IMG/VR virus record: IMGVR_UViG_3300034052_000013
Coordinates: 18,144 to 82,143 of that record
Reading direction: 5' to 3' (one strand)
DNA from: a virus
Taxonomy: Duplodnaviria > Caudoviricetes
DNA length: 64,000 nucleotides
Shown here: positions 4,460-63,475 of the stretch, piece by piece
Numbering within the stretch: position 1 is the first letter of the stretch
How the letters are laid out: the number at the start of each line of letters is the position of its first letter
Position numbers and translations under genes: made by a program
The notes under the pieces: model-generated
What the model was told of the DNA's origin: nothing
Database searches by the model: none
The model's input: only the letters and a program-made list of their open reading frames with translations

Positions 4460-4465
4460 GATAAT

Positions 4466-6934
4466 ATGGGAATTAATAGATATGATAAACCAACAGATAT
4501 TAATTACATACAAACGTATGTAGATCAGTATGTACCTCTTCCATTTGAAGCGATGCGTGAGAATGCTAAATATAGAGCTGTACAAGCTGACGCTGTACAA
4601 AAAGATTTAGACGCTCTTCAAGCTGAAACAGGTAAAAGGTTAGACCCTTTAGATACAGGTTTAAACAGAGAGTATATAATAGCTGTTAATAAAGATATTA
4701 AAGAAGCGTATGATGCTGTTGGAGGCGATGTTATTAAACTTAGACAATATGCAAAAGACAAAGCTGCAGAAGTTAAAGGTTTTTATGAATATGGTCCAGG
4801 TTCTATTGGTGTGAAAACTGTAGAAGAAAAAAAAGCTTGGGAAGAGGTTGTTAAAAAAGGTGAAATGGATGCTGCTTATGTAGAACGAGCAAGTGAAGTT
4901 TCAGATGCTCTTTATCAAAAAAATAATGCAATGTTAGGTGGGGAAGCTTGGGAAGCTCCTATGGCCTATAAAAATATAGATATCTCTAAAAAAGGTACTG
5001 AAGCTAATCAACTAAAAGAGAGTTCACGAGAATCTTGGGGAGCTTTTGTTGATGGTATTTCAGGTGACCCTACAGGTAAATATATCTCAGATGTTAAGAA
5101 TGGTTATAAGAGTGTTTCAGAACAAAGGGTTTATGATTGGTTTAAAAGTTCAATTTACCAAGATGCAGATTTTGATAATAAAGTTAGAGCTCACTATACA
5201 TTAGCTACAAAAACAGCTGAAGTAATGGGTAAAGATTTTTATAAAGAGTCTGGTATTGTTCCTAAAGACCATAAGGGTAATATTATACCTAACCCAACTG
5301 ACTACGATTATTATACAGCTTACAAAGACCAGATGTTTATGGAAACTATACAAGGGTTTGTGAAAGCAATTCCTCATAGTGAGACTACACAATCGGGTTC
5401 TGTAAAAGAGACTGCAGAACAAACTGCAAAAGGTACAAAAAAAGGTACTGAATATAGTACACCTTTTAGTGTAATGAGTACAATACCTTTAAAAAATCCA
5501 GGATACGACCAAGATGTTGTTGACAATCCTGATGAAGCTTCTGCTAAAATGGGGGATAAGGCTAGTAAAACTACAACTACTTTTACAGATGGTGTAGCGA
5601 CAATAATGTCTAAAACATCTTTTTTTAAAAATGTTGGGCAAAAAGATGCTAAACAAAACTTTCAAAATGCAGTTAATGCTTATATTAAAAATAATAATTT
5701 AGAAAGTGATAAAGGTTCTGCAGAAACAAATATGAAAATCTTTATGGGTAAATTAGTAGGTGGAGGCCCTAAAGCAGAGGCTGCTGCAATTGCTATGGGA
5801 TTTACTAAAGAAGGGGTAAAAGAGTTAAAACAAACTGCAAAAAATATGTGGAATGAAGAGGTTAATGCTAACTATCAATTAATGAAAGCTTTAGTGCCAA
5901 ATCTTCCAGAAGATTATGCTGCTATACTTAAACAACAATGGCAAGCCTACACAACACAAGGTCTTTCTGTGAATGCAAACCACAATAATGTAAGTTTCTT
6001 ACCTAAAGTAAACACTCCAGAGTATAATAAACTTCAACCACAAGTTAAACTTATTACTGCTATCGCTCATGGTGATGAAGATGAGATAGAGAAGTTATTT
6101 GAAAAATACGAATCAACAGAAGCTAATGGGGCGGAAATTAACATCGGTTTTGCAAGACGAATTAGTGAAACTGTTGCAGAGAATATGGCAGCAACTAAAA
6201 ACCTTAATGTAGAACAACCTTTTACTAATTATATTCCTGTAAGTAATGACAACACATCTCATGATGCAGGACAAGCCGTTCTGAAAGATTTTAATAAATT
6301 TATTAAAAAAGAAGGGGATAAAATTTGGAATAATGAAACTGTAGATGTTTTATTAACAGATGGTACAGTTAAAACAGTTAAGGAGTACTATGAAGGTATA
6401 TACGGAACTGCGGCCAAAGCTAAAGAAACTTTTTATAAAGATCTTGAAAAAAATGATTTCACTTTTGGTGGGAAAGTTCAAGATGGTTTAGTTTTTAAAT
6501 TAGGTAGTGGTATTTCTTTTAAAATGGATGAATCTTCTAGTTTTAACTTTAACACAGGTATCATAGATCCGATAGCTAATATAGAAATGCAAGTAAAAAG
6601 TCAACTTTCAAATGTTAAAGCGAGAAATGGGATGTGGGTAGACCCTAACTATCAAATCACTACACAAATTGATAAAAGTGACAAGGGTCATACCGTTGCT
6701 AATATCACCGCTGCTTTAAAAGGTTCAGACGGTAAGTTCCACTACATACCAGCTCAAGAGGCTGAGAATTATTTATTTGAAATGGAAAAATTAAATTCAG
6801 GTCTAATGATAGTACCCCCTTCACAAGAAGGTGCAGGTGGTTATATGGTAACACAACCAAATGGAGACCACCATGTATATAGTAAATTAGAAGATGCTAA
6901 AGCAGCTTTAACACAAATTTATATTAATAAATAA
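4466..6934 (+). CDS. Virion cargo/ejection protein
   Basis: 822 aa, N-terminal NRYD...YVDQYVPLPF motif, syntenic position before the three giant RNAP-cluster genes. Confidence 0.5.
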   Translation: MGINRYDKPTDINYIQTYVDQYVPLPFEAMRENAKYRAVQADAVQKDLDALQAETGKRLDPLDTGLNREYIIAVNKDIKEAYDAVGGDVIKLRQYAKDKAAEVKGFYEYGPGSIGVKTVEEKKAWEEVVKKGEMDAAYVERASEVSDALYQKNNAMLGGEAWEAPMAYKNIDISKKGTEANQLKESSRESWGAFVDGISGDPTGKYISDVKNGYKSVSEQRVYDWFKSSIYQDADFDNKVRAHYTLATKTAEVMGKDFYKESGIVPKDHKGNIIPNPTDYDYYTAYKDQMFMETIQGFVKAIPHSETTQSGSVKETAEQTAKGTKKGTEYSTPFSVMSTIPLKNPGYDQDVVDNPDEASAKMGDKASKTTTTFTDGVATIMSKTSFFKNVGQKDAKQNFQNAVNAYIKNNNLESDKGSAETNMKIFMGKLVGGGPKAEAAAIAMGFTKEGVKELKQTAKNMWNEEVNANYQLMKALVPNLPEDYAAILKQQWQAYTTQGLSVNANHNNVSFLPKVNTPEYNKLQPQVKLITAIAHGDEDEIEKLFEKYESTEANGAEINIGFARRISETVAENMAATKNLNVEQPFTNYIPVSNDNTSHDAGQAVLKDFNKFIKKEGDKIWNNETVDVLLTDGTVKTVKEYYEGIYGTAAKAKETFYKDLEKNDFTFGGKVQDGLVFKLGSGISFKMDESSSFNFNTGIIDPIANIEMQVKSQLSNVKARNGMWVDPNYQITTQIDKSDKGHTVANITAALKGSDGKFHYIPAQEAENYLFEMEKLNSGLMIVPPSQEGAGGYMVTQPNGDHHVYSKLEDAKAALTQIYINK

Positions 6935-35869: not shown

Positions 35870-37240
35870 TTATTTTTTAAGGTTAAAACTACATTCTCCT
35901 CGTAATCGAAATTCGGTTACAAGTTCATAGAATATTTCTTTGGACATCTCTTCAAAATCAAAACGATGAAGATTATTCCACATTGGTATTGTTAAATCAG
36001 ACTCTCCTGATCGTTGTTTTAATAATTCAAAATAAGCCATTTGCATATAGTTATCAGGCCCCATTTTAACCTTTACAGGGTAATTTTGAGATGTGTAAGA
36101 TGTGATACCTAATTTTGCAGGGATATGATTTATTATTATGTAGTCACAACAGTGTTCTCAGTTTTGTTATCTCTAAGGCTCTTTATCCCTAGATTCTGCA
36201 ATTTCATTTCATTATAGTTGCAGCTCAGACTATATCATCATCTTACGGACTGTAAGATGTCGGATGTTCGTGGATATGTTATATTCTAATAAGAGGACTC
36301 TCTCCGGTGAGTAATTTAAGCTTGAGTACGTGAATACAGAGCTCCTATTTAGTAGTTTCAATATCTAGTCGTTGAACCCGCCAAGAGCATTTAACTCTTG
36401 GATAGGCTGCTGATTATCTATCTCTAGGTTTTCCAGCAATTTATCCGATTTAACGAGTACTTAATTTGTACAAATACTCGAGGCTCCAAACAAGTCTGAA
36501 CAAGATGGACGATGTAAATCTGAAACTTTAATTCTTTCTTTATCTCTAATATCTCTATTCATTTGAGATAAAACAATTCCGATAGAATTTCCACCATCAG
36601 CTACAATCTTTTTCTTAAATTGTATTAAACTGTACATCAATTCATCTATTCTTTCTTTTTCTGAAGAACCTTGTCTACCTTTAGTTAAAAGAGCATGGTC
36701 AATTTCATATACAAGAACTTTATTGTAAGGTTTACATTCTGTTTCATAGTAATGCCACAAACTATCAACAATAGTTTGAGCTGTACCTGGAACTTCAATA
36801 AACCATACATTATCTTTTTCTGACATTTTCTTATAATGTTTTTTTAACTCCTCATAATCTTGTTCACTTAAAGGTTCATCAACAGAGTAAAGTTTTTTTA
36901 AACTTATATTTGCTTCAGTTACAATTGCTCTTGCCACCTCTTGATGAGATAACATTTCAAAATTGAAAATGTACTGGTTAAAATCTACATCTTTGTTTAA
37001 TTCACATAAAGATTCTCTTATGCATTTTGCAATAGTAGATTTACCTGCACCAGAAAGTGCTGATATACAAGTTATCGTATTAAGCTCTACTCCACCCATA
37101 AGGTAGCTGTTTAATCTTGTAAACTTTGTTTCAAGTGATTTAATTAAACCTAATTTTCTATCTGTAACATATTTAAAATTTTGTACAGTTGCATCTCTTA
37201 TAGAGACTTTAGGTGAAATTATATTAACCGAGCTTGACAT
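35870..37240 (-). CDS. dnaB: DnaB-like replicative helicase, spliced (exon 1 37240-36474, exon 2 36158-35870; 351 aa)
   Basis: SALSGAGKST, LSQMNR and LLKQRSG motifs. Splicing gives ...TCG AGT AT|A GAA CAC TGT TGT GAC = SSIEHCCD, matching the DnaB SIEQDAD motif, and keeps the frame (767+289 nt). Confidence 0.88.
36159..36473 (-). mobile_element. ORF-less group I intron (315 nt) in dnaB
   Basis: On the - strand: P AATTGCTGGAAA, Q AATCAGCAG, R GTTCAACGACTAG, S GATATAGTCTG. P1 CGAGTAT/GTACTCG with U.G at the 5' splice site, terminal G at 36159. Confidence 0.92.
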
Positions 37241-37874: not shown

Positions 37875-40591
37875 TTACATTTCTGTATTCCTGTCTTTCA
37901 AGATAGTTTGTAACATATCTTTAAGTTCTTGAAAATCGTCAACCCAATAAACATCAGCTTCACAGTCTTTCTGACATTTTCTTAATTTTTGTTCATCTCT
38001 AGAATTTGGTACACTCCAATCTGGCACATACAAGTTTATATAAACTTTAGGGATAGGTTTACCATCTCTTAAAGAGATTCTTCCTATTCTTCCTCTTTTT
38101 TGTGTGTGTGTTGCAGGGTTTTCTGAACGTGACCCGTCAATACCTAGTTGAACATCAGGTACATCTACACCCTGGTCTAATGCTTTTGCAGATAAAAGTA
38201 CTCTTACTTTTCCTTCAACAAAATCTTTTAAATTTTGTTTTGCTAAAGTTGAACCAGATGTTGATTTAAACTCTGACCATGTTATTATAATTGTAGGTGA
38301 TTTCTTTAATTTATACGGGATGTTTTTACTATTTAATTTTCGCTTAAATTTTTCAGCAGCAAGTATAGTTTTAAAAACTTTAGATTTTTCAATCGGTATA
38401 AGTTTTGATTCCATATTTGAGTGGTAAGCGACAGCTGTATCCCCTAATTGTTTTTGTAATTCATCTACAAATTGTGTGGATTGAGAAAAAGTGATTGTAC
38501 GTACATTAAACTCTTTTATAAGTTCAATAGCGACTCCAATCTTATGCTGAGTATTATCAAGAAAGTCTTTCCTTTTTCTTATTAAACGCAACCCATTTGT
38601 TGCCCATTTAATAACTTCAGGTGGCTCTATTCCTAATATTAAAGCATATCTTGCAGCGTTTCTCCTATCCATACAAGATAACATATTGTTAAAATCCCCA
38701 AATCTAGACATATAATATCTAATTTGTTTTCCTAAATTAACTTGTTCATTAGCCTCTTTTGGGGTTATTGGTACGGCTAAGTTAAACTGAATAAAATCAG
38801 AGACCCAACCATTTAATATTGCTTCTTTTTGTGTGACTGTATCACAAATAGGAGCATAGTGTTCTAATAAAGCATGTTTACCATCTAATCTCTCTAGAGT
38901 AGCTGTTAAACATAATAACCAAGAATATGTAACTTTTCTGAACACTTGAGAAAAGACAGGGGCAGCGTATAAATGAACTTCCGTATACCTAATATCTTTC
39001 AATATTAGCCCGACTATATCTTAATTTTATTTTGTTATATAATATACTTTTAAAACAGGAGTTTTGTTTTGCAAACAATTTTTTAATTGTTTAGCATTTA
39101 AATTCAAAAACTCTTTTGCTTCTTTATAATTTTTTAATATTTTACACGTCTTATTTGTTCTTAAAGATTTTAATAAAATAGTATTAGAACTATTTTTAGC
39201 TTCTTTTAAATCAGTCAGGCACATGCTCCAGTAGTAGTTATGCCACAAAGTTTTATTTTTAACAGCATTATCAAGACCATCACCATTAGACCTAGCATTT
39301 TTTAACATTTTGTTTAAAACACTGGCTTTTGTGGGAAAAATTTGAATAAGTTTTTTTGTTTTATTATAACAATAGTACTTATTAGAATAACACCTTTCAA
39401 AAGTTTTTTTATTTGTATAATTTTTATAATTTTCACTATTATAATAATCTAAAGTAACCCAAGAATAACCATAAGCAGTTCTTCTTTTTTTATTTAAAAT
39501 ATTACTGATAGAGGTGTGATGTTTTATTGACAAGCTCTCTGCAGCTTCTGTTATAGAATTGTATATCTTAATTAAATTAAGTTTTTTATCTAATTGTACA
39601 ACAGATATTTTGTGAGCATCTATACTAGCTTGTAGTCCTGTAACATTTCTTCTGTTCTTTAACATCACTCCTTCTCCACCTTCTTGTATATTTAATAGTG
39701 AAAAACCCCAAGTCTTAAACTGAGAAATCCAATATTTTTCAGTTAGACTCCATACATCTTCTTCTACAGTTTCTAATAATCTGATAAGTATTTGATTATT
39801 ATTTTTAAGATTTTTATACATCCATTTTGAAACTTTTGTAGACTTATTATGCAAAGCATTATACTTATGTTGTGCAAACCTTATTTGTAAATTATTAACA
39901 GTAACTCCTACATAACGAATGTTATTAGGTTCTACATTTGAACTTAGTGTGTAAATATTATATAACATATTTTTGTATTAAACAACACAAAGATACATAA
40001 AATTTCTACCATTTCCATTAAAAAGCGTCGGCTTTTTATGTACTTCCTTTCGGAATAGTCTGTGAACCTTACTCTAAAAAGAGTCTTGGCTGCGGATTGT
40101 CTAATCTTTTTATTTTTTACTATACTGAGGTAATTATTCTCACCATATTTATATCACTATAAATACTTAGTATAAAAAGCTCTAAAGAGTTTCCCGTCAA
40201 TTAGATAGATTTAGACTCGACAAAATTTTCACCTATCGAGTATGAGTAAATCAACTTGGTATAATTTACTCTTTAGTGCAACAGTATTAATAACTAATAC
40301 ACTAACATTTTTAAAACCTCCTTTTTTTATATTATTTTCCCACTGCTCTTTTAATGAAGTAGTTGGTACTACAATTAGAACAGTTCCCTTAAAATTCATT
40401 TTAGTAAGATCCTTTTTAAAGAATTTTGCTAATACTAGTAAAGCACAAGCACTTTTACCAAAGCCAGTAGCCATTTGTAAAGTACCTCTACCTCTTGTTT
40501 TAACCCATCGTACAACAGCTCTTAATTGTCTTCTATATCTTAGAATATCAAAATTAGGATGGGTTGTGTCAAAACCAATCATAGTCTTCAT
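37875..40591 (-). CDS. Superfamily 2 helicase, spliced (exon 1 40591-40235, exon 2 38981-37875; 487 aa)
   Basis: MATGFGKS Walker A, LTAT motif III, LDQGVDVP motif V, QKRGRIGR motif VI. Splicing CTC GAT|GAA GTT CAT restores LILDEVH. Confidence 0.9.
39027..39968 (-). CDS. Intron-encoded GIY-YIG homing endonuclease with NUMOD-like repeats
   Basis: NIY...YVGVT, RFAQH, EKYWI, LLNIQEGG, and repeated IKIYNSITEAA / IQIFPTKAS segments. Confidence 0.85.
   Translation of the reverse strand: MLYNIYTLSSNVEPNNIRYVGVTVNNLQIRFAQHKYNALHNKSTKVSKWMYKNLKNNNQILIRLLETVEEDVWSLTEKYWISQFKTWGFSLLNIQEGGEGVMLKNRRNVTGLQASIDAHKISVVQLDKKLNLIKIYNSITEAAESLSIKHHTSISNILNKKRRTAYGYSWVTLDYYNSENYKNYTNKKTFERCYSNKYYCYNKTKKLIQIFPTKASVLNKMLKNARSNGDGLDNAVKNKTLWHNYYWSMCLTDLKEAKNSSNTILLKSLRTNKTCKILKNYKEAKEFLNLNAKQLKNCLQNKTPVLKVYYITK
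39988..39995 (-). promoter_or_regulatory. Intron-internal -7 promoter box for the GIY-YIG gene
   Basis: TATCTTTG on the - strand, 19 nt before ATG 39968. Confidence 0.6.
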
Positions 40592-54118: not shown

Positions 54119-56914
54119 TTAAATTACCCAACTTTTTTTCTTTTCAGAAAAAATTGAAGAGCGTTTTGGTTTTGAAATTGGTTTTGAAATTGGTTTTGGA
54201 GTCCCATACACTGCTTCCTGTACAGTACAAGGGTAAGCTTTTGTTATAGGACAAGGTGCCCCATTGGCATTATACAAACAAGACTCATCATAATTTGCAA
54301 GCCTAAAGTTTGTATAATTCGTACCTGTTACACCATCACTAAAACCACATTTTTTACCATTGTTATTTGTTACAAACCCTCCTTTTGAAGGGTCTCCGTG
54401 TAAAGTTCTATACACATAGTCTTTTAAAATAGTTTGCCCTCCTCGAGTACAAACAAGATAATCTCCACCCCTTGGGTCAAGATATTCCCACCAGTTTTCT
54501 TCTTTCATATCATTAGCGAAAAGTTTGTTTATTATTTTTGAAGTTTTTTCTTTTAAAGTGGAAGTTATAAAGCCTAAATTAGAAGTTTTTGTCCCATCAT
54601 AAGGTAAATCTTCATGTAGACTACCTAAAACTATTTTACCACCCAACTTAGCTACAACAGGTTGCAAGGTGTCAAAAGTGTGTATAGGTGTTGATGAGGT
54701 TATAACTAGTTCATGAATCCCCTCTTCATCTAATTGTTCTGCCTCTACACTCCAACTATAGGGGTAACTTTCTGTATAATCTTTGTCCTCATAGAAGTAT
54801 CCATCTGCAGCACCGTTATTATGAATAAGATAAGTCTTTGAACCCCCTTTTCTATAAATAATACCTTCTACTTCATGACCGTCAATATCAGCTTCAAAAG
54901 AGTGTCCTATATACTTATTTAACTCTGTTAGAGTTGAAATAAATTCAGGGTTTTTAACTTCTTTTTCAGGAGGGGTAATTTTAAAATCTTTTGAATGCTG
55001 TTGTATCCATAAGACATGCCCTTCTTCTGTAAGAGCAATAATAGTTTTACAGCTTCCATAAGTAAAAGTTTCAAAACTTTTAATAGTACAGTTATCGCCT
55101 TTATAAAGAGTTTTCTTATGAGCTCGGTGTGTTGAAACATTAACACCATTTCCAGTGCACAAAAGTCTATCTCCTATTTTAAACTTTCCACAAGAAGTTA
55201 TAATTTCCTTTTTCTCTTCTTTAAAAGTTATTTCAGTTTTACCCCCTATTGTTAGATTAGAAATACTTAGCCCTATATTATTAGGAGATACTACCCAACC
55301 ATATGCATATCCAACTGGCATTTTTGAAGGTCTGGATCCATCGGCTGAGGGATTGTTATGCAGAAGGTAGATATCACCTTTAGGACATTGATAAACAACA
55401 CCTTCAGTAAAATTATTTGGTATATCTAGCACTGCTGTAAATGTATGTCCCACATATTTTTTAAGGTCTTCAAGAGATTCTATACACAAAGCTTCATCTT
55501 CAGATTTTTCATCAGTTAACACAGGTGCATTACTTGTTATTTTAAAGTCCTTTATAAGCTGTGCACTTAAATCACTGCCATTAACACCCCAAGAATAAGT
55601 ATACCCTTTAGGAAATTTTGAAGGTTTATCACCATTACGATTTGAATTATTATGTAATAAATAAACACCTCCATCAGGTCTTTTTAACACTATTCCTGAA
55701 ATAAAATCAGAATTTATTTTCGCTTCATAACTATACCCCATAAATTTTTCAACTTCACTTAATAAAGTTAAATAACATTCTTTAGGTGTAACAGGGGTAG
55801 GTGAAACAGGACAAGGTTTATTACATATTTCATAAGAATGCACTTCACTCCCATCTGCTTTTCTAATTTTAAGCTTGTCTAAATCAGGGGTTTTGCTATC
55901 AGTACTCCATCTATCAAAGTTTCCATTTATGGTCTTTTCCACAGAAAAACAATATTTAGTACAATTTTCAGCTAATTTATAGACATGGTGAACAGGTAAA
56001 ACATCTTTCCAAATATCATCTTTACCAGTGCAAGTACTTAATAAAACTACATATTCACCTTTTTTAGCAAGAATTTCAAGTTTTTCTTCTTTAGATTCTT
56101 CTTCTACCTCTTTCTTAGATTTTAAATCTTTAAGTGGTCTAAATCTATTCTTTTTAATACAAGCATCCATCCAATCTATTTCCTCTTGTGTAGCTTCTCT
56201 TTTAATCCAAGGATAATCACCAGGTGTTGCATTATCTCCAGCATAATTCGAGAAAGTATTGTCTCGAAGAGAAATACAAGCTTCTATAAAAGAAGTTTTT
56301 AAATCAGAGAACTTATTTAGATTTCTGTATGTATCAGTCTCCCACACTTGATATAAAGAAGTAATTTCTTTAGGTTTCACATCCTCTAATGGTATAAATT
56401 TATTTGCTTTTTCACAAGCTAAAAACCATTCTTCTTCTTCTTCTGTAGCTAGTCTATGGGAGTGAGCACCATTTTTAAAAGGGTTTCTATACACATCTTT
56501 CCTAAAATTTTGTGAGGCTTGTATTGTAAGAACATTATCTCCAATAAGCCTACCGTCACTTTCTATTTCTACAAACCTAGTTACCCATTGAAAATGGTCA
56601 ATGCCTTCAGTGTACTGTCCAAATATAATATCACCTGGTTTAAATTCAGAAGATGTTTCAACAGCAGACGTTTGTGCTAAATCATTTACAGCTTTACAAA
56701 ATGTTTTCAAATCTTCTAAAGTTTTTGCCTCAGGGAAATCTCCTCCTAAGTCGTAACCTAAAGTTTTTTCAAAGAATTTTCTTGAGGTTGTACCTCTTGC
56801 TTTTAAAAACATATCTAAATCGTAGGCAGCTTTCATAAGATAGAAATTCTTACAACTAGGGTATTTACATTTACTTACTTCATACTCCTCATCAAGTAAT
56901 TTAATTTTTTCCAT
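54119..56914 (-). CDS. 931-aa modular repeat protein of unknown function
   Basis: Three (Y/T)YL(L/I)HNN...G/S-Y-x-Y-(S/G)-W modules and four R(L/E/K)A(T/D/N)..E modules. Confidence 0.7.
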   Translation of the reverse strand: MEKIKLLDEEYEVSKCKYPSCKNFYLMKAAYDLDMFLKARGTTSRKFFEKTLGYDLGGDFPEAKTLEDLKTFCKAVNDLAQTSAVETSSEFKPGDIIFGQYTEGIDHFQWVTRFVEIESDGRLIGDNVLTIQASQNFRKDVYRNPFKNGAHSHRLATEEEEEWFLACEKANKFIPLEDVKPKEITSLYQVWETDTYRNLNKFSDLKTSFIEACISLRDNTFSNYAGDNATPGDYPWIKREATQEEIDWMDACIKKNRFRPLKDLKSKKEVEEESKEEKLEILAKKGEYVVLLSTCTGKDDIWKDVLPVHHVYKLAENCTKYCFSVEKTINGNFDRWSTDSKTPDLDKLKIRKADGSEVHSYEICNKPCPVSPTPVTPKECYLTLLSEVEKFMGYSYEAKINSDFISGIVLKRPDGGVYLLHNNSNRNGDKPSKFPKGYTYSWGVNGSDLSAQLIKDFKITSNAPVLTDEKSEDEALCIESLEDLKKYVGHTFTAVLDIPNNFTEGVVYQCPKGDIYLLHNNPSADGSRPSKMPVGYAYGWVVSPNNIGLSISNLTIGGKTEITFKEEKKEIITSCGKFKIGDRLLCTGNGVNVSTHRAHKKTLYKGDNCTIKSFETFTYGSCKTIIALTEEGHVLWIQQHSKDFKITPPEKEVKNPEFISTLTELNKYIGHSFEADIDGHEVEGIIYRKGGSKTYLIHNNGAADGYFYEDKDYTESYPYSWSVEAEQLDEEGIHELVITSSTPIHTFDTLQPVVAKLGGKIVLGSLHEDLPYDGTKTSNLGFITSTLKEKTSKIINKLFANDMKEENWWEYLDPRGGDYLVCTRGGQTILKDYVYRTLHGDPSKGGFVTNNNGKKCGFSDGVTGTNYTNFRLANYDESCLYNANGAPCPITKAYPCTVQEAVYGTPKPISKPISKPKRSSIFSEKKKSWVI

Positions 56915-57714: not shown

Positions 57715-58021
57715 CACTTTCATTTTTAAGTTCGTCAAGTAGAGCGTTTATTTCTTCTTCAGATGTAGCTTTTCTTAACTTATCTAATAAATAATCAGAT
57801 TTTTCAGGAGTTTTTTCTACTTCTGTTGACTTCTGTTGTCCTTTTTTAAAATCTGAAAATTTCTCTAATAATTCAACAACAGTGTCTGCTGCAGCTTTGT
57901 TAATTTCTTCTATAGTAACAGAACCTGAAAGGTCTATTTTACCTTCTGTGTTTTTTACAAGATTTCTCAATAAAAGACTTTGGTATACTGTTGAAAACAG
58001 TACGATTGACATTTCATCCAT
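57695..58021 (-). CDS. Hypothetical protein
   Basis: 108 aa preceded by a (TAAAAT)4 A-rich leader. Confidence 0.6.
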   Translation of the reverse strand: MDEMSIVLFSTVYQSLLLRNLVKNTEGKIDLSGSVTIEEINKAAADTVVELLEKFSDFKKGQQKSTEVEKTPEKSDYLLDKLRKATSEEEINALLDELKNESDEKASV

Positions 58022-58074
58022 AATTTTAATTTTAATTTTAATTTTAATTTAATATTAGTTTCATTTGTTATTTG

Positions 58075-58124
58075 TGATATGTCAGGAATCGAACCTGAAA
58101 TTAAGCCTTAACCACTTACATATC
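58075..58124 (-). ncRNA. tRNA-like element lacking the anticodon arm
   Basis: GATATG/CATATC acceptor-like stem stacked on TCAGG-TTCGATT-CCTGA T-arm, D-loop-like AGTGGTTAAGGC, no anticodon stem. Confidence 0.6.
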
Positions 58125-58181
58125 TTAAGTAAACACCCGTTGTATTTTCCCCTCTTAAAGAAAGAGACTACTTTCCTTTAA

Positions 58182-58595
58182 TTAAGAACGGATATTTAAA
58201 TCTTTTAAAATTGTTGTAAACCAAACATACCGATTGACGTTGTTTGTTTTATCATAAAAAAATGTACCTTCGTTTGAAGGAGGTGCAAATTTATGTTTTT
58301 TTGAAGCTTTAAGACAAGATTTGTAACTTAATTCTGGGAATAACTTACCCTGTCTAATAGCTAAGGAAATAGACAATTCAAGATTATCTACCCAAGATTT
58401 TTTACGATGTTTTTCTGCAATAATGTTACGAACACAAATACATAAGCCTGTGTTTTTTATTTGTTCCACATTATAATCAGAAATAAAAGCTTTAAATACC
58501 CTTTTTCTCATAAATTTAAATTTGTAAGAAAAGAGAATTAATTGAATTTGTAATTTTTCTTTAAAAGAAAGTGTTTGAATTTTTAGGATTTTCAT
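58182..58595 (-). CDS. Hypothetical basic protein
   Basis: 137 aa ORF with A-rich leader. Confidence 0.55.
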   Translation of the reverse strand: MKILKIQTLSFKEKLQIQLILFSYKFKFMRKRVFKAFISDYNVEQIKNTGLCICVRNIIAEKHRKKSWVDNLELSISLAIRQGKLFPELSYKSCLKASKKHKFAPPSNEGTFFYDKTNNVNRYVWFTTILKDLNIRS

Positions 58596-58699
58596 AAGTT
58601 TAGTTATTAAGTTATTTTATATAAATTTTCAGTTTAAACCCCCATACTTCCGTAGAAGATATGAGGGCAACTAAACTAAAATTAAAACTTTAATAGTAA

Positions 58700-58799
58700 A
58701 CACCCTAAGTGGATATGGACCACTGTTTCCTTATAATTATTCAACTTCTTAGGTCTTCTCAGTTAATTATAATTTGTCTTTCCATTAGACGATAGGGTG
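58700..58799 (-). ncRNA. tRNA-Glu-related cloverleaf with enlarged anticodon arm and degenerate T-loop
   Basis: CACCCTA/TAGGGTG acceptor stem. D-arm TCGTCTAATGGAAAGACA is 17/18 identical to tRNA-Glu. TTATAATTA/TAATTATAA stem encloses about 26 nt. T-arm AGTGG-TCCATAT-CCACT. Confidence 0.65.
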
Positions 58800-58895
58800 T
58801 GTAAGAAATGGAATAGTTTGTCTAAATATTAATTAGCAATAATGTAAAACAAAAATCAACGATATGAGCAGGACTGCTCGAAAAAGGTGACAAAA

Positions 58896-59126
58896 CTATT
58901 CCATATTTTTTATGAAGAATTTCAATTCTCCGTTAAATTTTCCATTATTTTTTTCTATCCATTCATGACAGAATAGATTAGTTTTATTGTCTAACACATG
59001 AATTTCTTCACTAGTTAGATTATCATAAGCAACAAGTTTTTTAGTTTCACTATGAGTACAGAGGATACAATAACCATTTAAGTCTGTATCTTCACAAAAC
59101 TCTCCACATAATTTACATATCATCAC
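58896..59126 (-). CDS. Small zinc-finger protein
   Basis: CKLC...CILC. Confidence 0.55.
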   Translation of the reverse strand: MMICKLCGEFCEDTDLNGYCILCTHSETKKLVAYDNLTSEEIHVLDNKTNLFCHEWIEKNNGKFNGELKFFIKNME

Positions 59127-59325
59127 AACAAAGTTTATTAAGTTTAAGAAACTGATCTAAATTATTATAAGTTCGGTCACATTCTTCTTTTGTAGAATAT
59201 GTGAACCGAAACTCATTTTTATAAAGAGAATAGACGACTAACGTCCATTGGTTAGTTATTTCTTTCTCTTTTTTATATCCAGCAATATATTGCTCTGCTA
59301 TTCGTGTGCCTTGAATACTTATCAT
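59113..59325 (-). CDS. Hypothetical protein
   Basis: 70 aa, ATGA-coupled to the upstream 43-aa ORF. Confidence 0.55.
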   Translation of the reverse strand: MISIQGTRIAEQYIAGYKKEKEITNQWTLVVYSLYKNEFRFTYSTKEECDRTYNNLDQFLKLNKLCCDDM

Positions 59326-59453
59326 GGTTTACGACATTTAAGTGTTACTTGTGTGAGATGCATACATACACAGTCTGCAACTAAAGAAGCGTATTGACGT
59401 TCTTTAGCTAATCTACCTCCACTGTAGATTTTAATTGTTGATTGTTTAGCCAT
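59322..59453 (-). CDS. 43-aa hypothetical protein (below the ORF-track cut-off)
   Basis: MAKQSTIKIYSGGRLAKERQYASLVADCVCMHLTQVTLKCRKP, with TAAAATTATG leader and ATGA overlap with the next gene. Confidence 0.6.
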   Translation of the reverse strand: MAKQSTIKIYSGGRLAKERQYASLVADCVCMHLTQVTLKCRKP

Positions 59454-59486
59454 AATTTTAAGTTTTAATTGTTAATTTTAATTTTG

Positions 59487-59557
59487 TAGCTCATGCAGGA
59501 ATCGAACCTACGTTACCACCATGAAAAGGTGATGTCCTTCCATTAGACGAATGAGCC
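59487..59557 (-). tRNA. tRNA-Glu (UUC), CCA not encoded
   Basis: GGCTCAT/ATGAGCT acceptor, GTCT-AATGGA-AGGAC D-arm, TCACC-TTTTCAT-GGTGG anticodon arm (TTC), GTAGG-TTCGATT-CCTGC T-arm. Confidence 0.9.
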
Positions 59558-59559
59558 AG

Positions 59560-60700
59560 ATGTTGCTTAATAAAAAATAAAAAGCTTTGTTTATAATAGC
59601 TCACTTGTCTGGTGCACTAGGTGCCCGTGAAGTTTTACTGGTAATATCTAAGTATTACATTTGCTAAACAGGTATCAATTTAATGGCTTACCTCTTAATT
59701 GCCAACTTTTTATTAACCATGTCAAGATTTTAGCACCTTAATCTTACCCGAAGTCGTGTAAACACTAACTATTTGTGTAAGAATGAAGGTCACGATGATT
59801 AAAGACTCCTATCTGCCGAAGTATGCTTACACTTAATCATCTTGCCGAGAACTTCCATTGCAACTATATTTATAGTACTTCAGTAGTTATTTAGCTTTCT
59901 CAAGGCTAAGTTGCATTCCATATTTCTATGAACATCTATTTATACTCTCAGGATTTAGCGAGTACTATTCAATTCTACATTCAGTCACTATTCTTTTTAT
60001 AACAGATATTCGTTTCCTCATCTGTAACTGTAACATTAGAATAACCATAGTTGGTTCCTATACATTTCTGTATAAGAGTCAATTTTAAAAATTGTGATGA
60101 CAGGGTTGTTTCATACCTGTAAAAGGGGATTAGTATTATTATCTATGTAAATTACTAATATTGTTGAGCAATGTTTTCATTTCTATAATAGACCAGCTAC
60201 TTTATTGATATTATACATATTTCTCAGGTATGTTTTTACTATGTTTCACTACTTACGAATAATATTTATTTCCTGTCCTCGCCTTACTCCACGTAAGGTG
60301 TGTTTTATTCCACCACATCACAATTATTACATTTTAAAAAGAAAGATTCATAATAGACATTAAGTGTCGACTGAAGGCTAATTGTTACTAGCTAACTTTC
60401 CTATTACTTTTATAATTAATACGTCATGTATAACACTAAGTGTTAGAGGCAATAAACAACTTTATATTAATTATATATCTTTCTTTATGTTTTAAAAATA
60501 AGTTACTGTTGATAGATGAGCTTAATTTTCAAAGCACTAGGCTCTGTTGTTTTTCAACCTTTCTCATCAACCAATATTCTCTTCCCTCAATCAATTGGAT
60601 TATATCACTAAACTTTCAACATCAGTTGCAGATGTTACATGCAATCCTACTCTAGGTTACAGTCTATCAGATATTTAAGAACTTGGTTCAGTAACTTATT
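59560..60700 (-). ncRNA. Candidate large structured non-coding RNA
   Basis: No credible ORF. Many hairpins, several long-range helices and crossing pairings. G.U pairs work only on the - strand. Boundaries uncertain. Confidence 0.5.
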
Positions 60701-60703
60701 AGT

Positions 60704-61276
60704 TTATTTTAATAAAGCTTTAATATTTTCTCCACCATAAGAATTTTTAGTTAATTCTATAAATTCTAATATAGTGAAAGTGTCAGTTTCAAGATTAATG
60801 CTTTTATCTCTACAAAAAGATTCCCTACCCATTTTACAACTGCCTGTTAAGACGTTATGCCAAATGAATAAATCTGAAGCTTTGTATTTAGATTTAAAGT
60901 TAGGGAATTGTTCTTTAAATTTAGAGATACGTTCTTCTAATGGACAATTTTCATATAACTTCTCTTGTAGAGAATTAAATGCTTCTTTTAGAGTTGTCCC
61001 ATGTGAGAAATAATTATCTTGCTTTACAATATAACAAGGTGTTAGCGTTAAATCTAAATTTACGATAAAACCTTTAGCAATGTTATTTCTGAGAGATGTG
61101 ATAATAGTTTGGACTGAATCTATTAAATAAATAGGTTGGTTATTTAGGGATTTTAATCCATTTCCATCTCCATCTCCATCTCCATCTCCATATCCATTTC
61201 CATATCCATCTCCATTTCCATATCCATATCTCTGGAGGGGTTTTTCTATAGATAGAAAAACTGCTAGATTGTCCAT
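60704..61276 (-). CDS. Gly-Asp/Tyr/Asn repeat protein
   Basis: YGYGNGDGYGNGYGDGDGDGDGNG tract, then FSHGTTLKEA and WHNVLTGSCKMGR motifs. Confidence 0.7.
   Translation of the reverse strand: MDNLAVFLSIEKPLQRYGYGNGDGYGNGYGDGDGDGDGNGLKSLNNQPIYLIDSVQTIITSLRNNIAKGFIVNLDLTLTPCYIVKQDNYFSHGTTLKEAFNSLQEKLYENCPLEERISKFKEQFPNFKSKYKASDLFIWHNVLTGSCKMGRESFCRDKSINLETDTFTILEFIELTKNSYGGENIKALLK
61157..61228 (-). repeat. 12 tandem hexamers (D)ATGGA encoding (X-G)12
   Basis: + strand TCCAT[T/C/A] x12. Units differ only at one position. Confidence 0.9.
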
Positions 61277-61545
61277 ATAGGTTGGTTTTTTAAATTTTCA
61301 ACAGCTGTTTCAGTACAAACATTTATTTGACAAACGTCTAAAACTATTATTTCATCTATTTCACAAGTAATTCTATCTCCTGTAACACCTTTGTCAGCAA
61401 TGTCTTCTATTGTTCTAGCACCTGACCAACTATAAATTCTTCTTACTTTTTGTAAAGTAGCTTCATTACCAGTTCTTTCTTTTAAAATACCAAAAAATAC
61501 TCCAGCCATATTAGACCGAACTATTACATAATTTTCTTTGTTCAT
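61264..61545 (-). CDS. Small conserved phage protein (DUF6948-like)
   Basis: YVIVRSNMAGVFFG...RRIYSWSGA...IA..GV, directly upstream of the G-D repeat gene. Confidence 0.65.
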   Translation of the reverse strand: MNKENYVIVRSNMAGVFFGILKERTGNEATLQKVRRIYSWSGARTIEDIADKGVTGDRITCEIDEIIVLDVCQINVCTETAVENLKNQPIWTI

Positions 61546-61780
61546 AATTTTAAATATTTAGTTAGTTTATTTTAATAGTAAAGTATCCACGACTTTAGCT
61601 TAGGATACTGTATATAAGCATATACTGGAGATATATCTTATACAGCTACTTAGAGTTAGTCTAGAACATATCTAAGGCACTCATCTTACTTGAACTTGAG
61701 TCAGAGGTTTGATGGTACAATTTTGTACTCATCTGCAATCGAATGCCACAGCTATATCTCTATACTGATGAGTAATGTTT

Positions 61781-62059
61781 TTAGAACATAGCTTCAAGTT
61801 CTTTCAAATCTTTTATACCTGCTTCTAAAGCTGCTATTTCATTTTTAGCTTCTATAATAGCACTAGGGTTGAAAGGTTTAGCACGTAATGCAGCATTGTA
61901 TTTTCTGTTAGCTCCTAATAATGCTTGCTGTGTTGCTAATAGGTCTGCTGACAGTTGTTGCTTGCCTTGCTCTACTTGGAATTCTTGTTCCTGTTGGTCT
62001 TGTTCCTGTGAAGACTCTTGGTATAAGTCTTTCAACTTTGGTAATAATACTTTTGCCAT
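61781..62059 (-). CDS. Gln-rich coiled-coil protein
   Basis: 92 aa with A-rich leader (AATAAAACAGATG), PFNPSAIIEAKNEIAALEAG motif. Confidence 0.65.
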   Translation of the reverse strand: MAKVLLPKLKDLYQESSQEQDQQEQEFQVEQGKQQLSADLLATQQALLGANRKYNAALRAKPFNPSAIIEAKNEIAALEAGIKDLKELEAMF

Positions 62060-62776: not shown

Positions 62777-63475
62777 TTATAAGTTTTCTTTGATTGTACG
62801 AATATCATTCTTTGGAATAGCATACACTGCTCTACTGTTTTTATTGTGTTCTACATAGGATAGTGTGATAGCTTTATTCATAATATTGTCTAAAATAGCT
62901 TCAACTTCTTCTCTGGACCAACTATCTTTGATTCTTGTGATTGTTATGTAGTTGTGAGAATCTATTTTAGGTTTTGGAAATACAGGACTTGCACCATTTT
63001 CCATCCAATCATCGTAAGTTGGATTGGTATATTCAACCATAACTTCTTTTATCATATTACCTTTATTGTATTCTTGACAATATTTTTCAATGAATTGTGG
63101 TGAGGGTTGAGGTAAGTTTAATAATTTGTCTGTTGTTGCTATAATTTTGTTGTTTTCACTTATAGGGTAACTACCCCCATTACTGTTCATAACGTGAACA
63201 GTTCCATTGTGTTCCGAATAATCATATTTACTCACTTCATAATCAAATAAAGTAGATTTTCTTGCTAAGCAATAATCACCTTCTTTTATTGTTTCATCTG
63301 AAGTGATGTAAAAGTGTTTTGATGTACCGTCTAGATAGTTTTTTACATACTCTTGGGTTAGGTATTTGGTTACGAAATAACATTTTCTAAATACACCACT
63401 GTGTAATATTAATATGCAGTTTTCTGCCTTGTTTGTTTCTATCAAGTGTACTTGACATTTTCTTTTACTTTCCAT
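62777..63475 (-). CDS. Hypothetical protein
   Basis: 232 aa, HFYITSDETIKEGD and KIIATTD motifs. Confidence 0.65.
   Translation of the reverse strand: MESKRKCQVHLIETNKAENCILILHSGVFRKCYFVTKYLTQEYVKNYLDGTSKHFYITSDETIKEGDYCLARKSTLFDYEVSKYDYSEHNGTVHVMNSNGGSYPISENNKIIATTDKLLNLPQPSPQFIEKYCQEYNKGNMIKEVMVEYTNPTYDDWMENGASPVFPKPKIDSHNYITITRIKDSWSREEVEAILDNIMNKAITLSYVEHNKNSRAVYAIPKNDIRTIKENL

What the first reader, a model, noticed from the sequence alone, without database searches (positions are those of the whole stretch)
59560..60700. About 1.1 kb ORF-free, densely paired region upstream of tRNA-Glu: candidate large ornate ncRNA
Seen in the sequence (- strand transcript): a perfect 10-bp helix 60316-60325/60090-60099, extended by TTTTAAAA, closes a ~250-nt multi-hairpin domain. 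A 9-bp helix GACTCTTAT/ATAGGAGTC (60072-80/59804-12) spans ~270 nt. GATGATTAAG/TTTAATCATC (59832-41/59794-803) is crossed by GTGTAAG/CTTACAC (59826-32/59775-81), giving pseudoknots. TGCAAC/GTTGCA (59910-15/59859-64) closes a junction. Three hairpins share a C(C/T)TGAGA loop (59891-909, 59943-64, 60216-32), two have GAAA loops, and there are two CUUCGG motifs with short stems. G.U pairs are valid only on the - strand. Established: large ornate RNAs such as GOLLD occur in phages next to tRNA genes. Inference: this is one or more large structured RNAs, possibly a new class in crAss-like phages, and the UGAGA loops may be T-loop tertiary motifs.
Basis: partly seen in the sequence, partly recalled or inferred. 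Interest (0 to 1): 0.82.

Follow-up and report, generated by a model that had tools for sequence, protein, structure and literature searches.

The report
Non-coding RNA locus, sediment crAss-like phage
A 1.1-kb gene-free stretch next to a tRNA gene in a lone sediment crAss-like phage gives at least one discrete RNA in an environmental RNA data set and resembles the unexplained abundant early non-coding RNAs of its nearest cultured relative, but it is not shown to be one large ornately folded RNA.

Summary
The gap at 59558-60703 is truly non-coding on both strands and under recoded stops. It matches no Rfam family, although the same search mode finds a group I intron elsewhere in the window.

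The listed helices exist, but "densely paired" fails. Folding energies are no better than shuffles or the flanking genes, and one long-range helix has an arm that a near relative lacks.

Three signals do exceed chance:
- Perfect 10-12 bp inverted repeats that close successive domains are in excess (5 against 0.8, P about 0.002).
- Two GAAA hairpins lie on the - strand (P about 0.013).
- Two hairpins have unrelated stems but the same 9-nt loop CYUGAGAAA.

A sediment metatranscriptome holds one 254-nt contig, identical to 59793-60046, and nothing else within 4 kb.

The phage is crAss-like and a singleton, so covariation cannot be tested. Its nearest cultured relative, phi14:2, makes abundant, stable early long non-coding RNAs just downstream of g004. 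The window has a g004 homologue upstream of this gap, in the same orientation. The phi14:2 RNA region carries the same hairpin loop (P about 0.02).

Verdict: probably a crAss-like early non-coding RNA locus of unknown job. The strand and the RNA ends are open.

This scan flagged large RNA loci in other crAss-like phages before, none alike in sequence.

The parts
59558..60703 (-). ORF-free, non-coding stretch between the 190-aa gene and tRNA-Glu. This is the candidate non-coding RNA locus. The sense strand is assumed to be '-', like all genes of this arm.
   Evidence: no coding potential; no Rfam family; no decayed-gene remnant against PHROGs, stops read as X
59793..60046 (.). Part present as RNA: one 254-nt contig of a sediment metatranscriptome, 100% identical, k-mer depth 8.4. 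It is the only cover in 58000-62000. The strand is not given by contigs.
59891..59909 (-). Hairpin A: 5-bp stem UUAGC/GCUAA with 9-nt loop CUUGAGAAA. It follows directly the 5' strand of the helix UGCAAC/GUUGCA (59910-15/59859-64).
60215..60233 (-). Hairpin B: 5-bp stem ACAUA/UAUGU with 9-nt loop CCUGAGAAA. The loop matches hairpin A and the stem is unrelated.
60056..60077 (-). GAAA-tetraloop hairpin with a 9-bp stem that includes one U.G pair valid only on the - strand.
59917..59932 (-). GAAA-tetraloop hairpin with a 6-bp stem that includes one U.G pair valid only on the - strand.
60497..60700 (-). Domain D1, closed by a perfect 12-bp inverted repeat (60689-60700 / 60497-60508). It starts 4 nt after the stop codon of the 190-aa gene. 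z = -3.6 on the - strand and -1.6 on the +, but its interior alone gives z = -1.7.
60338..60486 (-). Domain D2, closed by a perfect 10-bp repeat (60477-86 / 60338-47), with a nested 11-bp AT palindrome pair (60465-75 / 60411-21). z = -3.3 on the - strand and -1.4 on the +; the interior is ordinary.
60090..60325 (.). It folds better on the + strand (z = -3.1) than on the - strand (z = -1.8).
59964..60089 (.). 126-nt block replaced by 14 nt in a related phage of a freshwater sediment.
   Evidence: tables 5, 5c, 8
59794..59841 (-). Hairpin H6, with a 9-bp perfect stem plus one G.U pair. On the - strand the RNA contig ends 1 nt past its base, so it may be a protective 3' hairpin.
59567..59716 (.). 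Domain closed by a 10-bp inverted repeat made only of A and T (59707-16 / 59567-76), just upstream of the tRNA. Its fold is ordinary.
60280..60300 (+). The only terminator-like hairpin with a T-run in 59300-60900, and it lies on the + strand. It keeps a + strand transcript possible.
59486..59557 (-). tRNA-Glu(UUC), directly downstream of the non-coding stretch.
62777..63475 (-). Homologue of phi14:2 g004, the gene that directly precedes the phi14:2 early long non-coding RNAs. It serves as a positional anchor.
   Evidence: 35.8% identity over 165 aa; E 1e-17 locally, 3e-12 against all phages
60704..61545 (-). Two-gene cassette: DUF6948 (61264-61545) and a 190-aa protein with Gly/Tyr repeats (60704-61276). 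It is widely shared with unrelated gut Bacteroides phages and lies between the g004 homologue and the non-coding stretch.

Best explanation
The stretch is the non-coding RNA locus of the early/replication arm of a deep-branching crAss-like phage from sediment. It is the counterpart of the abundant, stable early 'long non-coding RNAs' that Cellulophaga phage phi14:2 makes just downstream of its g004 gene.

Proposed working, all of it inferred:
- The locus is transcribed with the arm on the - strand. Odds for that strand are about 2:1.
- The transcript is cut or trimmed into one or more stable RNAs of a few hundred nt. One of them covers at least 59793-60046, and its 3' end would be protected by the 59794-59841 hairpin.
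- These RNAs are strings of short AU-rich hairpins rather than one compact ornate fold.
- They would act in trans through exposed, conserved loops: two CYUGAGAAA loops and two GAAA tetraloops. The partner would be a protein or an RNA.

Shown: the stretch is non-coding, non-random and present as RNA; a g004 homologue lies upstream; the hairpin loop is shared with phi14:2.
Inferred: the strand, the processing, action in trans, and homology with the phi14:2 RNAs.
For: - No coding potential.
- A 254-nt RNA contig from a separate sediment metatranscriptome is 100% identical to the window. The flanking 3.7 kb, genes included, has no cover, which argues against DNA carry-over.
- The 2578-aa protein matches the phi14:2 virion RNA polymerase, PDB 6VR4, at E 2.7e-89. 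phi14:2 is the best hit among GenBank phages.
- The phi14:2 paper reports two long intergenic regions after g004 that are transcribed in sense, early, above most genes, and that persist through infection. phi14:2 has no current CDS between g004 and g006, at 2905-4601.
- The window's 232-aa protein is a g004 homologue in the same orientation upstream of the gap.
- A hairpin with the identical 9-nt loop CUUGAGAAA on a different stem lies in the phi14:2 non-coding region on the transcribed strand, at L129 3138-3154. In an unbiased test of shared hairpin loops this gives P = 0.02.
- In the window and phi14:2 the loop sequence occurs nine times. The three copies that lie in these non-coding regions on the genes' strand are hairpin loops with stems of 4-5 bp. 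The other six have no such stem in that register.
- Within the region there is an excess of long inverted repeats, GAAA hairpins only on the - strand, and paired shared-loop hairpins at P = 0.004.
Against: - No homologue of the stretch was found anywhere, so there is no conservation or covariation evidence.
- There is no alignable similarity to the phi14:2 RNAs beyond an 11-nt match.
- About 2.1 kb of other genes separates the g004 homologue from the gap. g004-like proteins also occur in phages that are not crAss-like.
- The RNA evidence is one short contig from one run.
- Folding energies are ordinary.
- Some features favour the + strand: the hairpin A module has z = -2.0 on the + strand against -0.1 on the -, D3 folds better on the +, and the only terminator-like site is on the +.
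- Five other Crassvirales genomes that carry the 9-mer have it only in coding DNA or inside a tRNA gene, with no non-coding hairpin copy. Two further genomes lack the 9-mer.
Confidence: 0.5

Rival explanations
1. It is one giant ornate structured RNA of about 1.1 kb, in the manner of GOLLD or ROOL, with long-range helices, pseudoknots and tertiary loops.
For: - Successive domains are closed by perfect 10-12 bp helices, in excess over chance.
- GNRA loops are present.
- The stretch sits next to a tRNA gene, as for many GOLLD loci (own knowledge).
- Earlier notes of this scan report 0.6-2 kb RNA loci in other crAss-like phages (unchecked).
Against: - No Rfam match at E up to 10.
- Fold energies are no better than shuffles once the closing repeats are removed.
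- RNA cover is 254 nt, not 1.1 kb.
- A 126-nt block that holds one arm of a proposed long-range helix is missing in a near relative.
- G+C content is at the genome mean, with no enrichment.
Confidence: 0.1
2. It is a spacer with no function of its own. It would be decayed or filler DNA between a mobile two-gene cassette and a tRNA gene, read through by the arm's transcription. The RNA contig would be a stable decay intermediate, and the motifs would be chance or local AT-rich composition.
For: - Fold energies are ordinary.
- Three of the six long repeats are made only or almost only of A and T.
- The stretch tolerates a 126-nt indel.
- Pieces of tRNA-Glu lie nearby (58775-92 and 58083-96), so this neighbourhood accumulates debris.
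- The upstream cassette is mobile.
Against: - 1.1 kb of filler is unusual in a phage that is otherwise tightly packed. It is the longest ORF-free gap in the window.
- There is no trace of a decayed gene.
- RNA is enriched in one part only.
- Hairpins with the same loop on different stems occur here and in phi14:2.
- GAAA hairpins are in excess.
Confidence: 0.25
3. The functional strand is the + strand, antisense to the arm. Small RNAs or tRNA-derived relics would be made there. On that strand the two shared-loop hairpins are anticodon-arm look-alikes of tRNA-Glu(CUC): a 5-6 bp stem closed by U.G, with a 7-nt loop UUCUCAA or UUCUCAG.
For: - The hairpin A module and D3 fold better on the + strand.
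- The only terminator-like site is on the + strand.
- The reverse complement of the loop is exactly the anticodon loop of a real tRNA-Glu(CUC) in crAss-like phage cr111_1.
- ARAGORN in its loose mitochondrial mode calls a Glu(CUC) at 59869-59933 on the + strand.
Against: - No T-arm or D-arm lies around either hairpin, and no T-loop motif occurs in the region.
- The Rfam tRNA model finds nothing at E up to 10.
- ARAGORN's loose modes give many false calls here.
- phi14:2 transcribes its region in the sense direction.
- The GAAA hairpins and domains D1 and D2 favour the - strand.
Confidence: 0.1
4. It is a DNA-level element, such as a replication origin, a recombination or packaging site, or small inverted-repeat mobile elements.
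For: The excess of perfect inverted repeats is the same on both strands, so it could act in DNA.
Against: - There are no iterons or tandem repeats.
- There is no GC-skew turn and no AT enrichment over the genome mean.
- No second copy exists in the genome.
- No target-site duplications are seen around the repeats (sequence).
- An RNA product exists.
Confidence: 0.05

Closest known systems
Early long non-coding RNAs of crAss-like Cellulophaga phage phi14:2 (g004-g005 and g005-g006 intergenic regions; Drobysheva et al., bioRxiv 10.1101/2020.03.07.982082)
   Same: - The host phage is the nearest cultured relative by virion RNA polymerase.
- Both are ORF-free stretches of about 0.7-1.7 kb in the arm of small early genes, downstream of a g004-family gene and in its orientation.
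- Both have an RNA product more abundant than the neighbouring genes.
- Neither matches an Rfam family, apart from the tmRNA part of the phi14:2 region.
- Both carry a hairpin with the loop CUUGAGAAA on the genes' strand.
   Different: - There is no alignable sequence similarity.
- In the window, 2.1 kb of genes lies between the g004 homologue and the gap.
- The second phi14:2 region holds a tmRNA, which the window lacks.
- The window has a tRNA-Glu instead.
- Timing, strand and ends are unknown for the window's RNA.
GOLLD (RF01998) and ROOL (RF03087), large ornate RNAs of bacteria, phages and prophages
   Same: All are long non-coding stretches in a phage, next to tRNA genes and seen in environmental RNA. 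The tRNA link of GOLLD is from my own knowledge.
   Different: - No match to either model at E up to 10.
- No G+C enrichment and no unusual fold stability.
- The RNA seen is only 254 nt.
Stable RNAs C and D (species 1 and 2) in the tRNA gene cluster of phage T4 (own knowledge, not checked here)
   Same: They are small stable phage RNAs of unknown job, encoded beside tRNA genes and made from the same precursors.
   Different: They are 120-140 nt long, come from an unrelated phage, and no sequence comparison was made.
tmRNA, as encoded by phi14:2 at the matching place
   Same: It is an abundant, stable, pseudoknotted RNA of 350-470 nt in the early arm of the nearest relative.
   Different: The window has no tRNA-like domain, no T-loop, and no call from ARAGORN or Rfam.

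Membership tests
GOLLD (RF01998) / ROOL (RF03087) / OLE / raiA / HEARO | A match to the family covariance model | tested here: not met
   cmscan in gathering mode on the whole window and in E-value mode (up to 10) on 59300-61000, 59700-60110 and 60080-60710 gave only snoRNA-type noise. The same E-value mode finds a group I intron at 36207-36526 with 56 bits, which serves as a positive control.
GOLLD / ROOL | Location beside tRNA genes in a phage or prophage | tested here: met
   tRNA-Glu lies directly downstream. This is a resemblance only.
tmRNA | A tRNA-like domain (T-arm, acceptor) and a tag reading frame | tested here: not met
   ARAGORN finds no tmRNA. Rfam's tmRNA models give no match. 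No T-loop motif occurs in the region.
Group I intron | A match to RF00028 and a split host gene | tested here: not met
   There is no match at E up to 10. The upstream gene is complete against its homologues, and a tRNA gene lies downstream.
Y RNA / YrlA with Ro60 (TROVE) | A TROVE protein gene nearby and a tRNA-like module | tested here: not met
   No TROVE match in the 82-kb record at E up to 1, and no Rfam match.
Retron or DGR template RNA | A reverse transcriptase gene | tested here: not met
   No RVT_1 match in the record.
phi14:2-type early long non-coding RNA of crAss-like phages | A long ORF-free stretch in the early arm downstream of g004, in the same orientation | tested here: met
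   A g004 homologue lies at 62777-63475 on the - strand (E 1e-17), and the gap is downstream on the same strand. However, 2.1 kb of other genes intervene.
phi14:2-type early long non-coding RNA of crAss-like phages | Transcribed in sense, early, above most genes, and stable | tested here: inconclusive
   One 254-nt metatranscriptome contig is enriched over the flanking genes. Strand and timing are unknown.
phi14:2-type early long non-coding RNA of crAss-like phages | Sequence or structure homology to the phi14:2 RNAs | tested here: inconclusive
   No alignment by blastn or nhmmer. One shared 9-nt hairpin loop on a different stem gives P = 0.02.

The most novel reading that the evidence does not exclude
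The locus and phi14:2 lncRNA-1 belong to one new family of abundant early crAss-like phage RNAs. Its kept hairpin loops (CYUGAGAAA) display a GAG codon in a context that can pair with the whole anticodon loop of tRNA-Glu. The match is 7 of 7 with UUCUCAA of tRNA-Glu(CUC), as seen in cr111_1, and 6 of 7 (including one wobble) with UUUUCAU of the phage's own adjacent tRNA-Glu(UUC). The RNA would then bind, sequester or shield tRNA-Glu by loop-loop kissing, for example against a host anticodon nuclease or to tune translation.
Probability: 0.07. Interest if true: 0.85.

Novelty: new variant of a known kind. Interest (0 to 1): 0.5.

Why it matters
crAss-like phages are among the most abundant viruses known. 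The only transcriptome study of a marine member found two early non-coding RNAs that outnumber most mRNAs, and their function is still unknown.

A second case in a very distant sediment relative would suggest that such RNAs are a general part of the crAss-like early programme rather than an oddity of one phage. It sits at the matching place, has its own RNA evidence, and shares a hairpin loop.

The shared loop gives a concrete handle for experiments in the culturable phi14:2 system: mutate the loop, or pull down its partners.

Tried and rejected
- Homologue hunts all came back empty.
  - blastn 'distant' against 50,697 GenBank phages hit only the tRNA.
  - blastn and nhmmer against 80 IMG/VR loci that carry the neighbouring 190-aa gene, and a search of 50 of their whole records, found nothing.
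  - Pattern scans of viral contigs found nothing.
  - The metagenome contig scan gave 39 hits, all chance.
  - The scan of GTDB genomes found nothing.
  - The scan's own index held no look-alike.
- Anchor proteins gave no close relatives: the 931-aa protein (and no homologue among 5.8 billion proteins), the 288-aa protein and PolA (best GenBank hit 41%).
The contexts of the 70-77% homologues of the 190-aa protein could therefore not be read.
- Recoded stops open no frame.
- Decayed gene: six frames with stops read as X against PHROGs gave nothing.
- No sigma-70-type promoter excess, and no Bacteroidota-type -33/-7 promoter in the region.
- Relaxed ARAGORN runs gave noise.
- A 16-nt exact match to gut phages (window 60624-60639) lies in an unrelated 5' leader there and is best read as chance.
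- A small share of words in run X2, a freshwater sediment, was laid. It is a 93-99% relative in short pieces, too fragmentary for covariation.
- I considered building a covariance model of the hairpin A module from two sequences and dropped the idea. It would only have repeated the 9-mer pattern search.
Full report
**What the window is.** The window is the last 64 kb of an 82,143-bp IMG/VR virus record, estimated 87% complete. The only run that holds it in full is a sediment metagenome. The 2578-aa protein at 12588-20324 matches the virion RNA polymerase of Cellulophaga phage phi14:2 (PDB 6VR4, E 2.7e-89). phi14:2 is also the best GenBank phage hit for that protein (27.6% identity, E 4e-82). 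The phage is therefore crAss-like but very isolated:
- The 931-aa protein has no homologue among 5.8 billion proteins.
- PolA, the 288-aa protein and the 931-aa protein have no close relatives in IMG/VR.
- The best GenBank PolA hit is 41% identical.

**Checking the observation: coding.** The region 59558-60703 has no ORF of 60 aa or more on either strand. On the - strand the longest ORF wholly inside it is 33 aa. This also holds under TAG=Q or TGA=W. A codon-usage log-odds score trained on the phage's long genes is negative in every frame throughout the region and positive in the flanking genes. Six-frame translations with stops read as X hit no PHROG family. It is the longest ORF-free gap in the window. 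tRNA-Glu(UUC) lies at 59486-59557 on the - strand.

**Checking the observation: helices and motifs.** A 10-bp perfect repeat taken singly is expected by chance. As a set, however, there are five perfect inverted repeats of 10 bp or more within 400 nt, against 0.8 +/- 0.9 in 1000 dinucleotide shuffles (P = 0.002). No 1146-nt tile of the window has more than the tile that lies mostly in this region. These repeats cut the stretch into successive domains:
- 60497-60700
- 60338-60486
- 60090-60325
- 59794-59841
- 59567-59716

Two GAAA-tetraloop hairpins with stems of 6 and 9 bp, each with a U.G pair valid only on the - strand, compare with 0.17 expected (P = 0.013). The + strand has none. CYTGAGAAA occurs twice against 0.02 expected. 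These are the only two copies on that strand in 64 kb, and both form the 9-nt loop of a 5-bp hairpin with unrelated stems. Such a pair is rare in shuffles (P = 0.004).

**Checking the observation: "densely paired".** This claim is not borne out.
- Sliding 200-nt windows give z from -2.5 to +1.35, no better than the coding DNA on either side.
- The domains look stable only because they were cut at their closing repeats (z down to -3.6). Their interiors are ordinary.
- The third "shared loop" hairpin has the motif inside a stem.
- The CUUCGG motifs have almost no stem.

**Known RNA families.** Rfam gives nothing in gathering mode. It also gives nothing in the laxer E-value mode (E up to 10) on three overlapping sub-stretches. 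This is informative, because the same E-value mode finds a group I intron at 36207-36526 (56 bits against a gathering score of 50), which the whole-window gathering run had missed. Further negatives:
- ARAGORN finds no tmRNA, and the region has no T-loop motif.
- The record has no TROVE protein and no reverse transcriptase.

The stretch is therefore not GOLLD, ROOL, OLE, RNase P, tmRNA, a group I intron, a Y RNA or a retron/DGR RNA.

**RNA evidence.** Three public runs hold parts of 58000-62000. When they were laid, a sediment metatranscriptome from another study gave a single 254-nt contig. It is identical to 59793-60046, has k-mer depth 8.4, and is the only cover in the 4 kb. DNA carry-over would cover the flanking genes as well, so this is a discrete, enriched RNA. 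Contigs give no strand. On the - strand its 3' end falls one base past the foot of the 59794-59841 hairpin, as expected for an end protected from exonucleases. By my rough estimate, such a coincidence has about a 1-in-7 chance.

**A near relative.** A freshwater sediment DNA run holds short pieces of a 93-99% relative. In it, 59964-60089 is replaced by 14 nt.

**Homologues.** The gene just upstream (190 aa, Gly/Tyr repeats) and its DUF6948 partner form a cassette shared with more than 1500 proteins of gut Bacteroides phages. Those phages share nothing else with this one and have no such gap. Covariation therefore cannot be tested at present.

**The link to phi14:2.** Earlier notes of this scan on other crAss-like phages pointed to the phi14:2 transcriptome paper, which I read. 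It reports that two long intergenic regions (the g004-g005 and g005-g006 junctions) are transcribed rightward and are already present at the first time point. They are more abundant than most genes and, unlike other early transcripts, do not decline. Their function is stated to be unknown.

In the phi14:2 record, g004 ends at 2904 and the next current CDS starts at 4602. I then found three things:
1. The window's 232-aa protein (62777-63475, - strand) is a g004 homologue, with 35.8% identity over 165 aa (E 1e-17 locally, 3e-12 against all phages). The gap thus lies downstream of a g004 homologue in the same orientation. However, a 288-aa gene and the mobile cassette lie in between.
2. The second phi14:2 region contains a 470-nt tmRNA (ARAGORN, tag GSSVQKLAMVA; Rfam 46 bits, E 1.4e-16). 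This probably accounts for that "lncRNA".
3. The first phi14:2 region carries a hairpin on the transcribed strand at L129 3138-3154, UCAC-CUUGAGAAA-GUGG. Its 9-nt loop, together with the C and G that flank it (11 nt in all), is identical to the window's hairpin A, while the rest of the stem differs.

In an unbiased count of shared hairpin loops between the two non-coding regions, this gives P = 0.02. The three other copies of the 9-mer in phi14:2, and the three copies on the window's + strand, lie outside the two non-coding regions and have no such stem.

Of seven other Crassvirales genomes, five carry the 9-mer, and only in coding DNA with one exception. The exception is the reverse complement of the anticodon arm of a genuine tRNA-Glu(CUC) in cr111_1. 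No other alignable similarity links the window to phi14:2.

**Strand.**

| Favours the - strand | Favours the + strand |
|---|---|
| All genes of the arm and the tRNA lie on it | The hairpin A module (z = -2.0 against -0.1) |
| phi14:2 transcribes its region in sense | Domain 60090-60325 folds better there |
| GAAA hairpins occur only there | The only terminator-like site lies there |
| Domains D1 and D2 fold better there | On it the two shared-loop hairpins take the geometry of a tRNA-Glu(CUC) anticodon arm |
| The RNA contig ends at a hairpin foot | |

No other tRNA feature surrounds those hairpins. I put the - strand at about 2:1.

**Reading.** The best-supported account is a non-coding RNA locus of the crAss-like early arm, the counterpart of phi14:2 lncRNA-1. 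It would yield one or more stable RNAs of a few hundred nt, built of short AU-rich hairpins with a few kept loops (confidence 0.5). The rivals are:
- a functionless spacer whose RNA is a decay intermediate (0.25);
- a + strand product or tRNA-Glu(CUC) relics (0.1);
- a DNA-level element (0.05).

**The most novel reading not excluded.** The loop contains a GAG codon and is complementary to the complete 7-nt anticodon loop of tRNA-Glu(CUC). It is complementary to 6 of 7 positions in the phage's own adjacent tRNA-Glu(UUC). A role in binding tRNA-Glu is therefore possible but untested (probability about 0.07).

**Novelty and score.** Abundant early non-coding RNAs of crAss-like phages are on record for phi14:2. 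This scan has also noted large RNA loci in other crAss-like families on unrelated DNA (no look-alike of this stretch). This is a new variant of that kind, in a lineage with no known relatives. It has RNA evidence of its own, but no conservation data and no known function. Interest 0.5.

Noticed in passing
window 36207-36526 (-): Rfam in E-value mode finds a group I intron here (RF00028, 56 bits against a gathering score of 50, E 1.1e-12). The whole-window gathering run missed it, so the default filters lose real hits in this AT-rich genome. It agrees with the first-stage note of an ORF-less intron in dnaB.
   Followed up: partly
L129 (phi14:2, NC_021806) 4031-4500 (+): The g005-g006 'long non-coding RNA' region of phi14:2 contains a 470-nt tmRNA gene (ARAGORN, tag GSSVQKLAMVA; Rfam tmRNA 46 bits, one bit under gathering). 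The paper's text, as searched, does not say this.
   Followed up: partly
window 60704-61545 (-): The DUF6948 gene and the 190-aa Gly/Tyr-repeat gene form a two-gene cassette. It is shared at 47-77% identity with more than 1500 proteins of gut Bacteroides phages and prophages that share nothing else with this phage. It looks like a mobile module of unknown job.
   Followed up: partly
window 58775-58792 and 58083-58096; 58074-58137 (-): There are partial copies of tRNA-Glu: its D-arm (17 of 18 identical) and its T-arm (14 of 14 identical). With the threshold lowered to 80%, ARAGORN calls a 64-nt tRNA with anticodon UUA at 58074-58137. The Rfam tRNA model finds neither copy at E up to 10.
   Followed up: partly
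window 54119-56914 (-): This 931-aa protein has no Pfam family and no homologue among 5.8 billion proteins by word search.
   Followed up: partly
window 61546-61780: A second non-coding gap of 235 nt has strongly negative coding scores. The relative in run X2 differs at only 2 of 146 positions on 61578-61723, which lies within this gap.
   Followed up: no
window 60624-60639; L001 554-569: A 16-nt exact match (TGTAACATCTGCAACT) occurs in many related gut phage records. There it lies 8 nt upstream of a start codon and forms part of a different hairpin. It is probably chance (E about 0.06 per genome).
   Followed up: partly
window 39027-39968 (-): A NUMOD1-domain homing endonuclease ORF lies directly upstream of the ORF that carries a helicase C-terminal domain (37875-39002). 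This fits the first-stage note of an intron in an SF2 helicase. Rfam in E-value mode found no intron core there at E up to 1.
   Followed up: partly
window 59964-60089: The 126-nt block missing in the freshwater relative is bounded by GAGTAC and GAGTC followed by a T/A-rich run. The indel looks like a deletion or insertion between short direct repeats.
   Followed up: no
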